NCBI RefSeq assembly: GCF_053078305.1
Contig: NZ_CP166879.1
Direction: 5' to 3' (one strand)
Length of the DNA: 64,000 bases
This document shows, in pieces, positions 57,642 to 57,989 of the stretch; positions within the stretch are counted from its first letter, which is position 1, and every line of letters begins with the position of its first letter. A model generated the notes under the pieces. That model had not been told where the DNA came from. It searched no databases and was given only the letters and a program-made list of their open reading frames with translations. Made by a program: the position numbers and the translations under genes.

Positions 57642-57989
57642 TCAGGGTGCAGAAGGACTAAAGATAAACGTTTTCTTCACGCCTTTACGCGGCCTGTCCT
57701 TCTCAAATCGCCATTTTGCCATCGCCTTTACAACCTGCTCATCAAACAGATGGTGCGGCTCTGAACGGATAAACTCAATTCGGGTGACAGTACCATCAGC
57801 ACCAATATCAAACTTCACATCAACCCGTCCCTTTATATAATTTGCCGCTGCATAGGCCGGATATTGTGGTAATGCCTTAACCAACTGTCGGGGCATATCT
57901 GTTTTATGTTGCGTACAGCCCATAACCAGAGAAGACAACAAAATAATTAACGGAAGATTTCTTTTCATTTTCATTTTCATTCCCGGCAC
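57642..57989 (-). CDS. lipoprotein with TonB C-terminal-like domain
   Basis: 115-aa ORF with lipobox LVMGC; YIKGRVDVKFDIGADGTVTRIEFIRSEPHHLFDEQVVKAMAKWRF resembles TonB C-terminal domain; true start may be a downstream Met. Confidence 0.65.
   Translation of the reverse strand: MPGMKMKMKRNLPLIILLSSLVMGCTQHKTDMPRQLVKALPQYPAYAAANYIKGRVDVKFDIGADGTVTRIEFIRSEPHHLFDEQVVKAMAKWRFEKDRPRKGVKKTFIFSPSAP

What the first reader, a model, noticed from the sequence alone, without database searches (positions are those of the whole stretch)
57642..57989. Small lipoprotein with a TonB C-terminal-like domain in the lysis-packaging junction
The predicted lipoprotein carries a domain resembling the TonB C-terminal domain, which contacts TonB boxes of outer-membrane transporters. 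A free periplasmic copy could compete with host TonB for TonB-dependent receptors and so block phages or colicins that use them, or modulate iron uptake. Together with the porin and the second lipoprotein, this prophage encodes three envelope-directed accessory proteins.
Basis: partly seen in the sequence, partly recalled or inferred. Interest (0 to 1): 0.55.

Follow-up and report, generated by a model that had tools for sequence, protein, structure and literature searches.

The report
Phage lipoprotein made of TonB's tip
This prophage gene encodes a small outer-membrane-anchored copy of only the receptor-docking end of TonB, the protein that powers iron uptake; it is common in E. coli prophages, has never been tested, and most likely acts as a decoy that dampens TonB-dependent entry of phages, colicins and siderophores.

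Summary
On the minus strand, 57642-57968 encodes a 108-aa lipoprotein. The mature part is essentially only a TonB C-terminal domain: Pfam TonB_C E=7e-15, E. coli TonB structures E~1e-16, modelled fold 0.7-1.0 Å from 1U07/2GSK. It has no membrane anchor and no proline-rich spacer, so it cannot transduce energy. It would be tethered to the outer membrane by about 8 residues, not free in the periplasm.

RefSeq already names it "TonB family protein". This clade is in 414 of 5426 complete E. coli genomes. The 71%-identical phage-21 clade is in 1225. No functional study was found.

New here:
- It belongs to a family of about 110-aa TonB-domain lipoproteins.
- Phage copies always lie between the spanin and terminase genes, and some relatives are chromosomal.
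- The family is under purifying selection (dN/dS 0.1-0.3).
- Most clades carry a Fur-box-like site (14-16/19) over the promoter. The window's site is degenerate (13/19) but is a perfect palindrome.

An AlphaFold fusion docks the BtuB Ton box as a β-strand; a scrambled peptide docks more weakly.

Most likely function: an energy-dead decoy for Ton boxes. This is inferred and untested.

The parts
57642..57968 (-). Coding sequence of the 108-aa TonB-C-terminal-domain lipoprotein (WP_000828070.1, 'TonB family protein'). Alternative in-frame starts lie at 57974 and 57980.
   Evidence: ORF list and sequence; RefSeq annotation; start-codon comparison across about 110 loci; dN/dS 0.09-0.31.
57915..57968 (-). 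Signal peptide (residues 1-17) plus the lipobox Cys18 (LVMG|C). Residue +2 is Thr, so sorting to the outer membrane by the Lol pathway is expected.
   Evidence: Read from the sequence. Cys18 is invariant in the 13-sequence family alignment. Rule-based lipobox scan. Outer-membrane sorting is inferred from the established Asp+2 rule.
57657..57893 (-). TonB C-terminal domain (residues 26-104), equivalent to E. coli TonB 153-231. The YP motif, F202, W213 and F230 equivalents are conserved. Q160 is Leu and R166 is Tyr.
   Evidence: profiles and PDB alignments; alignments; model and fold match.
58007..58015 (-). Predicted extended -10 promoter element TGtTAGAAT, about 40 nt upstream of the start. 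Sister clades have TGTTAGTAT at the same place.
   Evidence: Sequence and upstream comparison. The simple sigma-70 scan found no -35/-10 pair on this strand, so this element is predicted only.
57995..58011 (.). Perfect 8-1-8 palindrome AGAATAAG-A-CTTATTCT that overlaps the -10 element and the likely transcription start. It is a candidate operator.
   Evidence: It stays conserved in the 91%-identical variant L161 while the flanking sequence diverges.
57991..58009 (.). Fur-box-like 19-mer GATAAGAATAAGTCTTATT, matching the consensus GATAATGATAATCATTATC at 13 of 19 positions. It sits where sister clades have 14-16/19 Fur boxes.
   Evidence: Alone it is only marginal (p about 0.05 for a 60-nt window).
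57963..57980 (-). (ATGAAA)x3 hexanucleotide repeat spanning the start codon. Most related loci have two copies.
57464..58123 (.). Exchangeable cassette (gene, about 155 bp upstream and about 180 bp downstream). The otherwise homologous phage PPyecE_EH1910 has unrelated DNA here.
   Evidence: blastn of the window against L002; presence or absence among related phages.
58567..59040 (-). Context: Rz i-spanin with the embedded Rz1 o-spanin lipoprotein (58608-58799). Endolysin (59524-60057) and holin (60062-60331) lie upstream. The lysis cassette is complete without the TonB-like gene.
   Evidence: PHROG hits and RefSeq annotation.
54403..57509 (.). Context: the packaging side of the junction. YlcI/YnfO (57309-57509, +), HNH endonuclease (56902-57267, -), small terminase (56061-56654, -) and large terminase (54403-56064, -).

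Best explanation
The gene is a mobile accessory cassette (a moron) of lambdoid prophages. It encodes an outer-membrane lipoprotein whose mature part is only the C-terminal, Ton-box-binding domain of TonB.

Shown: the signal peptide and lipobox, a tether of about 8 residues, the TonB C-terminal fold, and the absence of the TonB transmembrane anchor and proline-rich spacer.

Inferred mechanism: the domain is held against the periplasmic face of the outer membrane. There it captures the Ton boxes of ligand-loaded TonB-dependent transporters such as FhuA, FepA, Cir and BtuB, and possibly those of incoming group-B colicins. Binding is by β-strand addition to its free β3 edge, as TonB does. Because it is not connected to ExbB-ExbD it cannot pull. 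It therefore competes with real TonB and lowers TonB-dependent entry of phages (T1 and phi80 type), colicins, microcins and siderophores.

Inferred expression: the gene is transcribed with the late operon during lytic growth, since it is on the same strand, and also from its own extended -10 promoter in lysogens. In most sister clades that promoter is overlapped by a good Fur box, so expression would rise under iron limitation, when the transporters are derepressed. In this clade the site has degenerated into a different perfect palindrome, so its regulator is uncertain.
For: Identity:
- TonB_C and TIGR01352 matches and PDB matches to TonB C-terminal domains.
- Model within 0.7-1.0 Å of 1U07, 2GSK_B and 2GRX_C.
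- It scores 73 bits against full-length TonB equivalog models whose cut-offs are 265-448, and only the C-terminal third aligns.
- The lipobox Cys is invariant and no family member has Asp at +2.

A functional gene rather than debris:
- dN/dS is 0.09-0.31 between clades.
- It is intact in 413 of 414 genomes for this clade and 1221 of 1225 for the phage-21 clade.

A mobile cassette:
- It is replaced by unrelated DNA in a homologous phage.
- It occupies the same spanin-to-terminase position in E. coli, phage 21, Klebsiella phage and metagenomic phages with different terminase types.

Binding competence:
- The YP motif and the F202, W213 and F230 equivalents are conserved.
- The AlphaFold fusion puts exactly DTLVVT, the BtuB Ton box, into a β-strand. 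Block pLDDT is about 69, against 47-50 for a scrambled peptide.

Precedent: periplasmic TonB fragments 33-239, 103-239 and 122-239 inhibit TonB-dependent transport (10.1101/2020.01.05.895219).

Iron-linked regulation: Fur-like boxes of 14-16/19 lie at -29 to -37 (19-mer start) in phage clades (L106, L107, L128...) and two chromosomal copies (L017 at -29, L018 at -34); in L011 (15/19) the box lies at -36 or -51, depending on the start chosen. L015 (14/19) lies further upstream at -63 and is not significant in the 60-nt control (11/19, p=0.24). Each has p of about 0.005-0.015 against random 60-nt windows, apart from L015.
Against: - There is no experimental evidence of any kind, and ten full-text literature searches found no study of this protein.
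- TonB Q160 and R166, the residues genetically and structurally tied to Ton-box recognition, are not conserved. They are Leu and Tyr here and variable across the family.
- The scrambled-peptide control still docked a strand, so the modelling shows an open β-edge rather than specificity. No positive control with authentic TonB could be run.
- A decoy induced under iron starvation would cost the host iron uptake.
- Chromosomal Fur-box-bearing relatives could point to a physiological role in iron uptake instead.
- In this clade the Fur-like site is only 13/19 (p about 0.05), and the phage-21 clade has lost it.
- The simple promoter scan found no -35/-10 promoter on this strand.
- The prophage's own J tip resembles lambda J, so there is no sign that the phage itself uses a TonB-dependent receptor.
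- PADLOC has no match.
Confidence: 0.45

Rival explanations
1. It has a positive or homeostatic role in TonB-dependent uptake rather than an inhibitory one. As an iron-regulated outer-membrane partner it might park or protect exposed Ton boxes, tune transporter signalling, or recruit the TonB C-terminus to the outer membrane by heterodimerising with it. Phages would have captured a host iron-uptake accessory gene that benefits lysogens in iron-poor hosts.
For: - Fur-box-like promoters are the signature of iron-acquisition genes.
- Relatives sit in ordinary chromosomal contexts in Raoultella and in two unidentified metagenomic lineages, next to a LacI-type regulator and MlrA, or next to ahpCF and GST.
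- The gene occurs in pathogens (STEC, UTI89) and on Stx1a phages. From my own knowledge, the stx1 toxin genes are themselves iron-repressed.
Against: - The protein has no connection to the energy source.
- Every laboratory TonB C-terminal fragment tested so far is inhibitory, not stimulatory.
- No co-occurring transporter or exbBD genes appear next to the chromosomal copies.
Confidence: 0.2
2. The TonB-like fold has been repurposed to bind something other than transporter Ton boxes. Candidates are the TonB-box-bearing N-termini of incoming colicins only, host TonB or ExbD themselves, peptidoglycan, or an unrelated periplasmic or phage protein. Precedents are the TonB homologue FusB, which binds its substrate ferredoxin, and TolA domain III, which binds TolB, colicins and phage g3p.
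For: - Q160 and R166 are not conserved.
- The family has its own invariant motifs, SEPxHLFD and AMxKWRFE, that differ from TonB's AKPANMFE and AMRRWRYE.
- The fold search also recovers FusB-ferredoxin (9HI3) and TolA complexes.
- The preprint read points out that TonB fragments might also act through ExbD.
Against: - The nearest sequence and structure neighbours are enterobacterial TonB C-terminal domains in their transporter-bound form (2GSK_B and 2GRX_C at 0.9-1.0 Å).
- The native Ton box docks better than the scramble.
- An 8-residue outer-membrane tether cannot reach inner-membrane ExbD (inference).
Confidence: 0.2
3. It is a lysis accessory or spanin-like protein, as the PHROG family label 'Rz-like spanin' and its position after the lysis genes suggest.
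For: phrog_1267 matches at E=2e-42 and is labelled 'Rz-like spanin'. The gene is adjacent to and co-oriented with the holin, endolysin and Rz/Rz1 genes.
Against: - A complete Rz/Rz1 pair is already present.
- The same PHROG label is attached to an overlapping nonsense ORF nearby (phrog_6954), so it looks positional.
- The curated phage 21 record lists its i-spanin and o-spanin separately and calls this gene 'TonB C-terminal domain protein'.
- It is a globular TonB fold, not a proline-rich o-spanin.
- Relatives are chromosomal and carry Fur boxes.
Confidence: 0.03
4. It is a non-functional captured fragment of the host tonB gene, as in the EDL933-style annotation 'partial tonB-like membrane protein'.
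For: Only the last third of TonB is represented. An old annotation calls it partial (record LR597643.1).
Against: - It has acquired a signal peptide and lipobox.
- Length is constant at 108-111 aa across clades that are 40-70% identical.
- dN/dS is 0.09-0.31.
- The promoter elements are conserved.
- It is only about 40% identical to E. coli TonB, so it is not a recent capture from the host.
Confidence: 0.02

Closest known systems
TonB energy transducer, C-terminal domain (E. coli TonB residues about 153-239; PDB 1U07, 2GSK, 2GRX)
   Same: It has the same fold (0.7-1.0 Å) and about 40% identity. The YP motif, the aromatic core (F202, W213, F230) and the β3 edge strand used to pair with Ton boxes are all conserved.
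   Different: It has no N-terminal transmembrane helix and no proline-rich spacer, so it has no link to ExbB-ExbD. Instead it carries a lipoprotein signal peptide and would be anchored to the opposite membrane. Q160 is Leu and R166 is Tyr, and the C-terminal tail is 4 residues shorter. It fails all full-length TonB equivalog cut-offs.
Engineered periplasmic TonB fragments (signal peptide fused to TonB 33-239, 103-239 or 122-239), which are dominant-negative inhibitors
   Same: Each is a TonB C-terminal domain exported without its energy-coupling anchor. These constructs abolish ferrichrome transport and cause iron-deficient growth (10.1101/2020.01.05.895219). That is the behaviour proposed here.
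   Different: Those constructs are laboratory-made, soluble and overexpressed. This protein is natural, shorter (the domain only), lipid-tethered to the outer membrane, under purifying selection, and carried by phages with its own promoter.
Phage receptor-blocking lipoproteins: Cor (phi80, N15, HK022) and Llp (T5), which inactivate FhuA (from my own knowledge)
   Same: All are small phage-encoded outer-membrane lipoproteins proposed to give superinfection exclusion by acting on a TonB-dependent transporter from the periplasmic side.
   Different: There is no sequence or fold relationship. This protein is a TonB_C domain, and the only PHROG hits were phrog_1267 and phrog_34172. Cor and Llp each target a single receptor. 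A Ton-box decoy would act on the shared energy-coupling step and so could affect many receptors at once. Cor lies near the tail genes, not at the lysis-packaging junction.
Bor/Iss lipoprotein moron of lambda
   Same: It occupies the same genomic niche, downstream of Rz/Rz1 and before cos and the terminase genes. It is also a small outer-membrane lipoprotein and a lysogenic-conversion candidate. Phage 21 carries both genes side by side.
   Different: The sequence and fold are unrelated. bor is transcribed against the late operon, whereas this gene runs with it.

Membership tests
TonB_C domain family (Pfam PF03544 / TIGR01352) | Profile match above the curated threshold | tested here: met
   PF03544 E=7.1e-15, 55.7 bits. 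TIGR01352 56.4 bits against a cut-off of 27.1.
TonB_C domain family (Pfam PF03544 / TIGR01352) | The α/β fold of the TonB C-terminal domain, with a three-stranded sheet packed on two helices | tested here: met
   AlphaFold domain pLDDT above 90. Foldseek matches 1U07, 2GSK_B and 2GRX_C with TM(target) 0.83-0.91 and rmsd 0.7-1.0 Å.
Functional TonB energy transducer (NCBIfam equivalogs NF008081-NF008084) | Whole-protein score above the equivalog cut-off | tested here: not met
   60-73 bits against cut-offs of 265-448. Only profile positions from about 150 to 240 align.
Functional TonB energy transducer (NCBIfam equivalogs NF008081-NF008084) | An uncleaved N-terminal transmembrane anchor that contacts ExbB/ExbD, and a proline-rich periplasm-spanning spacer | tested here: not met
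   The N-terminus is a 17-residue lipoprotein signal peptide. Only 8 residues separate Cys18 from the equivalent of TonB P153, and there is no Pro-rich segment.
Bacterial lipoprotein, outer-membrane sorted | Signal peptide with a lipobox ending in an invariant Cys, and no Asp at +2 | tested here: met
   LVMG|C with +2 Thr. The Cys is invariant in 13 of 13 family members, and +2 is Ser, Thr, Ala or Val in all of them. Actual lipidation and localisation cannot be tested with these tools.
Ton-box-binding proteins (functional property of TonB) | Binds the Ton box by β-strand addition to β3 | tested here: inconclusive
   The fusion model puts DTLVVT into a strand at block pLDDT of about 69. A scrambled peptide also forms a strand at 47-50. 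No authentic-TonB control could be run. Q160 and R166 are not conserved.
Spanins (Rz1-type o-spanin) | A small proline-rich lipoprotein paired with, embedded in or overlapping an i-spanin gene, and the only such pair in the lysis cassette | tested here: not met
   A separate Rz (phrog_13, E=4e-72) with an embedded Rz1 (phrog_3198, E=3e-31) is present. This protein is a globular TonB fold, and chromosomal homologues exist.
Fur regulon | A Fur box overlapping the promoter | tested here: inconclusive
   The window clade matches at 13/19 (57991-58009), p about 0.05. Most sister clades match at 14-16/19, with p of 0.005-0.015 (L015's box lies outside the 60-nt control window and is not significant there). 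The phage-21 clade has lost the site. No binding or expression data are available.
Phage moron (accessory cassette) | Presence or absence polymorphism between otherwise homologous phages, with its own expression signals | tested here: met
   Window 57464-58123 is replaced by unrelated DNA in PPyecE_EH1910, with 89-97% identical flanks. The gene is present in only 15 phage records by protein search, while the flanks match 139. The promoter is predicted only, and no clear terminator was found.
Known anti-phage defence systems (PADLOC-DB v2) | Match to any defence-protein model | tested here: not met
   No family matched at E<=0.1.

The most novel reading that the evidence does not exclude
A natural outer-membrane-tethered TonB C-terminal domain, iron-regulated in most clades, acts as a dominant-negative Ton-box decoy. 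It is carried by prophages in roughly a quarter to a third of sequenced E. coli, including classical phage 21, Stx1a phages, O157:H7 and UTI89. Lysogens would gain broad resistance to TonB-dependent phages, group-B colicins and siderophore-microcins by attacking the shared energy-coupling step rather than any single receptor. This would be a new class of superinfection exclusion or bacteriocin tolerance, with a built-in trade-off against iron uptake.
Probability: 0.35. Interest if true: 0.75.

Novelty: new variant of a known kind. Interest (0 to 1): 0.58.

Why it matters
TonB-dependent transporters are the entry gates for many phages, colicins, microcins and siderophore-antibiotic conjugates. 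A widespread prophage gene that throttles the common energising step would have several consequences:
- It could explain strain-to-strain differences in sensitivity to such agents, including phage-therapy candidates and cefiderocol-type 'Trojan horse' drugs.
- It would add a new principle to superinfection exclusion.
- It would link prophage carriage to iron physiology in pathogens such as STEC and UPEC.

The protein is also a ready-made natural minimal probe of the TonB-Ton box interaction. The hypothesis can be tested in a few days with standard K-12 genetics.

Tried and rejected
- Spanin function: the PHROG label 'Rz-like spanin' on phrog_1267 was rejected. A full Rz/Rz1 pair is present, and the same label sits on a nonsense overlapping ORF.
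- PADLOC defence models gave no hit.
- Rfam on 56500-60500 gave no RNA family.
- The simple promoter and terminator scan found no -35/-10 promoter or convincing terminator for the gene. The extended -10 was found by eye and by comparison between clades.
- The repeat finder missed the 8-1-8 palindrome because its arms are shorter than 12 nt.
- Ten full-text literature searches found no paper on this protein.
- The genome-contig scan failed with the broad alignment A2. With A3 it returned only 4 loci, so the taxonomic spread of chromosomal copies remains poorly sampled.
- Self-exclusion: the J C-terminus resembles lambda J (53% identity). It gives no evidence that the prophage uses a TonB-dependent receptor, so self-exclusion is not supported.
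- Pseudogene or 'partial tonB' was rejected on dN/dS and conservation.
- Both structure-prediction jobs went on the test and the scrambled control, so an authentic-TonB positive control could not be run.
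Full report
**1. The observation**

The minus strand carries an ORF that ends at 57642. Its product matches Pfam TonB_C (PF03544, E=7.1e-15) and TIGR01352 tonB_Cterm (56.4 bits against a cut-off of 27.1). It also matches the solved C-terminal domains of E. coli and Salmonella TonB (1U07, 1XX3, 2GSK, 2GRX, 8RD6; E 3e-16 to 2e-15; about 40% identity over 79 residues). The N-terminus, MKRNLPLIILLSSLVMG|C, is a lipoprotein signal peptide.

One correction is needed at the 5' end. RefSeq starts the protein at the ATG at 57968 (108 aa, WP_000828070.1). 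Among about 110 related loci, most have two ATGAAA repeats. In about 20 of them the upstream ATG is ATA, which leaves 57968 as the conserved start. The window has three repeats, so MK or MKMK may be added. The GTG at 57989 has no support.

**2. Anatomy**

Alignment to TonB puts residue P26 opposite TonB P153 and F103 opposite F230.
- Only 8 residues (CTQHKTDM) lie between the lipidated Cys and the folded domain.
- There is no transmembrane anchor and no proline-rich spacer. The protein scores 60-73 bits against full-length TonB equivalog models whose cut-offs are 265-448.
- Residue +2 is Thr, and Ser, Ala or Val in relatives. None has Asp, so the established Lol rule predicts outer-membrane sorting (inference).
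- Conserved with TonB: the P-x-Y-P motif and the equivalents of G174, V176, G186, P198, F202, W213, P220 and F230.
- Not conserved: Q160 (Leu here, variable in the family) and R166 (Tyr).
- Family-specific motifs are SEPxHLFD and AMxKWRFE.

An AlphaFold2 model has domain pLDDT above 90. It superposes on 1U07, 2GSK_B (TonB bound to BtuB) and 2GRX_C (TonB bound to FhuA) at 0.7-1.0 Å.

**3. Genomic setting**

The window holds a lambdoid prophage whose late operon runs on the minus strand. In order it carries:
- holin (60062-60331), endolysin (59524-60057) and Rz with embedded Rz1 (58567-59040);
- a short ORF (58319-58561) and then the TonB-like gene;
- a convergent YlcI/YnfO gene;
- HNH endonuclease, small and large terminase, and the HK97-type head genes.

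The lysis cassette is complete without the TonB-like gene. The label 'Rz-like spanin' on its PHROG family (phrog_1267) is also attached to an overlapping nonsense ORF (phrog_6954). The curated phage 21 record lists its spanins separately and calls the homologue 'TonB C-terminal domain protein'. I treat the PHROG label as a positional mis-annotation.

In the homologous phage PPyecE_EH1910, window 57464-58123 is replaced by unrelated DNA, while both flanks stay 89-97% identical. This is moron-like cassette behaviour.

**4. Distribution**

- This clade (A) is in 414 of 5426 complete E. coli genomes. It is always chromosomal, often in STEC serotypes, and always named 'TonB family protein'.
- Clade A is also in phage JLK-2012, phage Lys8385Vzw and Stx1a-converting phages.
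- A 71%-identical clade (B) is in classical phage 21, ev017 and Perceval. It is in 1225 of 5426 complete genomes, including UTI89.
- An exhaustive HMMER search, two IMG/VR scans and a genome scan revealed a wider family. Its members are 108-133-aa proteins with the same architecture: lipobox, short linker, TonB_C.
- That family has 37 distinct sequences in 165 loci. It includes a Klebsiella-phage clade (40% identity) and another phage clade (45%).

In every phage examined the gene lies between the spanin genes and the HNH or terminase genes, on the late-operon strand. This holds even though the terminase type differs: Terminase_4, Nu1, or the type in this window.

Some relatives are plainly chromosomal. 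In Raoultella ornithinolytica the gene sits between a LacI-type regulator and MlrA. Other relatives, in metagenomic contigs of unidentified organisms, lie next to ahpCF and GST, or next to an acetyltransferase and Usp.

dN/dS between clades is 0.09-0.31. The gene is under purifying selection and is not a relic of tonB.

**5. Regulation (the main new finding)**

The 60 nt upstream of the start carry Fur-box-like sequences in nearly every clade. The 19-mer starts at -29 to -37 in most clades (-63 in L015; -36 or -51 in L011, depending on the start chosen):

| Locus | Sequence | Match to Fur consensus |
|---|---|---|
| L107 | AGTATTGATAATCATTATC | 16/19 |
| L106 (contains the canonical TGATAAT-t-ATTATCA) | TTGATAATTATTATCAA | 15/19 |
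| L017 (Raoultella chromosome) | GAGAATTATTATCAATATG | 15/19 |
| L011 | TATAATGAAAACCATTCTC | 15/19 |
| Klebsiella-phage clade and Shimwellia | GATAATGTTGATTATCATT | 14/19 |

Against random 60-nt windows from the same loci, each has p of about 0.005-0.015. In the 64-kb window itself no position reaches 15/19 and only four reach 14/19. The box persists while the flanks diverge, and it directly follows a shared extended -10 (TGTTAGTAT).

In the window clade the homologous position reads TGTTAGAAT-AAGACTTATTCTTATC.
- The extended -10 is kept (58015-58007).
- The Fur match is only 13/19 (57991-58009; p about 0.05).
- The site forms a perfect 8-1-8 palindrome, AGAATAAG-A-CTTATTCT (58011-57995). It is unchanged in a 91%-identical variant whose flanks differ.
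- Clade B has lost the right half.

My reading is that the family is ancestrally iron/Fur-regulated. For this particular gene an operator is present, but its regulator (weak Fur binding or something else) is undetermined. Co-orientation with the late operon also implies read-through expression during lytic growth (inference).

**6. Mechanism**

What is shown is a TonB C-terminal domain that cannot be energised and that is predicted to sit on the inner face of the outer membrane.

To test whether it could still take a Ton box, I fused the mature protein through a 30-residue Gly-Ser linker to the first 20 residues of mature BtuB. I folded the fusion with the family alignment.
- The model placed exactly DTLVVT, the BtuB Ton box, in a β-strand. 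The 10-residue blocks covering the peptide had mean pLDDT 69 and 58.
- A composition-matched scrambled peptide also gave a strand (DLQFTS), with block means of 47 and 50.

This shows that the β-edge is open and the native Ton box is preferred. Specificity is modest, and no authentic-TonB control was possible.

There is an independent precedent. Exported TonB fragments (33-239, 103-239, 122-239) abolish ferrichrome transport and cause iron-deficient growth. This was originally attributed to blocking the TonB-transporter interaction (bioRxiv 10.1101/2020.01.05.895219).

The best-supported explanation is therefore a competitive, energy-dead decoy for Ton boxes. It would lower TonB-dependent import of phages, group-B colicins, microcins and siderophores. 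I give the mechanism a confidence of 0.45. Identity and architecture are near-certain.

Alternatives:
- a positive or homeostatic role in iron uptake, suggested by the Fur boxes and chromosomal copies (0.2);
- a repurposed fold with another ligand, with FusB-ferredoxin and TolA as precedents (0.2);
- a lysis accessory (0.03);
- gene debris (0.02).

The prophage's J tip resembles lambda J (53% identity to lambda J), so self-exclusion at a TonB-dependent receptor is not indicated.

**7. Comparison with what is known, and novelty**

The protein is a bona fide member of the TonB_C domain family. It fails every defining feature of a functional TonB: anchor, spacer and equivalog score. It works most like the engineered dominant-negative TonB fragments. 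Biologically it resembles the receptor-blocking phage lipoproteins Cor and Llp, and positionally the Bor moron, but it is homologous to none of them.

The gene has been annotated as TonB-like for years ('partial tonB-like membrane protein encoded within prophage CP-933N', 'TonB C-terminal domain protein'). The bare observation is therefore not new. I found no functional study in ten full-text searches, no PADLOC model and no dedicated NCBIfam family.

New here are the definition of a lipoprotein-only TonB-domain family shared by phages and chromosomes, its fixed position in phages, its Fur-box promoters, and the modelling support for Ton-box binding. I class it as a new variant of a known kind and score interest at 0.58. 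It is common, occurs in medically important strains, has a clear mechanism to test, and is cheap to test, but the function remains inferred.

Noticed in passing
window 41193-42347 (-): A full-length OmpC-subfamily porin gene (NF007841, 508 bits against a cut-off of 484) sits among the lambda-like tail genes of the prophage. It is a second envelope-directed accessory gene and could alter receptor availability for OmpC-dependent phages.
   Followed up: partly
window 46186-46599 (-): A 137-aa predicted lipoprotein (MKKFMLLIFSVSFFLTG|C) with a weak PEGA-domain match (E=0.018) lies between the tape-measure gene and the tail chaperone genes. No gene is annotated at this position in the otherwise near-identical prophage of strain 2013C-3181 (L003).
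   Followed up: partly
window 57963-57980 (-): The hexanucleotide repeat (ATGAAA)n spans the start codon of the TonB-like gene. There are 3 copies here and 2 in most related loci. Copy number changes the Shine-Dalgarno-to-ATG spacing and adds MK units to the signal peptide. It might be a slippage-prone expression switch.
   Followed up: partly
window 57995-58011: A perfect 17-bp palindrome, AGAATAAG-A-CTTATTCT, overlaps the predicted -10 element. It replaces the canonical Fur box of sister clades, and its binding protein is unknown.
   Followed up: partly
window 58083-58561 (-): PHROG functional labels look unreliable here. phrog_6954, labelled 'Rz-like spanin', matches an ORF (58083-58358) that is not annotated in RefSeq. 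The annotated 74-80-aa ORF (58319-58561) matches only the middle of a 291-position family of unknown function (phrog_2571), so it is probably a gene fragment.
   Followed up: partly
L002 3164-3628 (phage PPyecE_EH1910): Where the TonB-like cassette sits in the window, this related phage has a different 465-bp insert. The insert contains a 52-aa hydrophobic ORF (3327-3485). The junction appears to be a hot spot for swapping small envelope-directed genes.
   Followed up: no
L005 3227-4327 (phage 21): Phage 21 carries bor (a complement-resistance lipoprotein, on the opposite strand) and the TonB-domain lipoprotein gene (late strand) side by side downstream of Rz/Rz1. These are two different outer-membrane lipoprotein morons in one junction.
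   Followed up: no
window 60970-62937 (-): A 655-aa ORF upstream of the holin corresponds to the SASA-family carbohydrate esterase (NanS-p / 9-O-acetyl-sialate esterase type) annotated in related STEC prophages. An IraM anti-adapter gene lies nearby in the matching RefSeq prophage.
   Followed up: no
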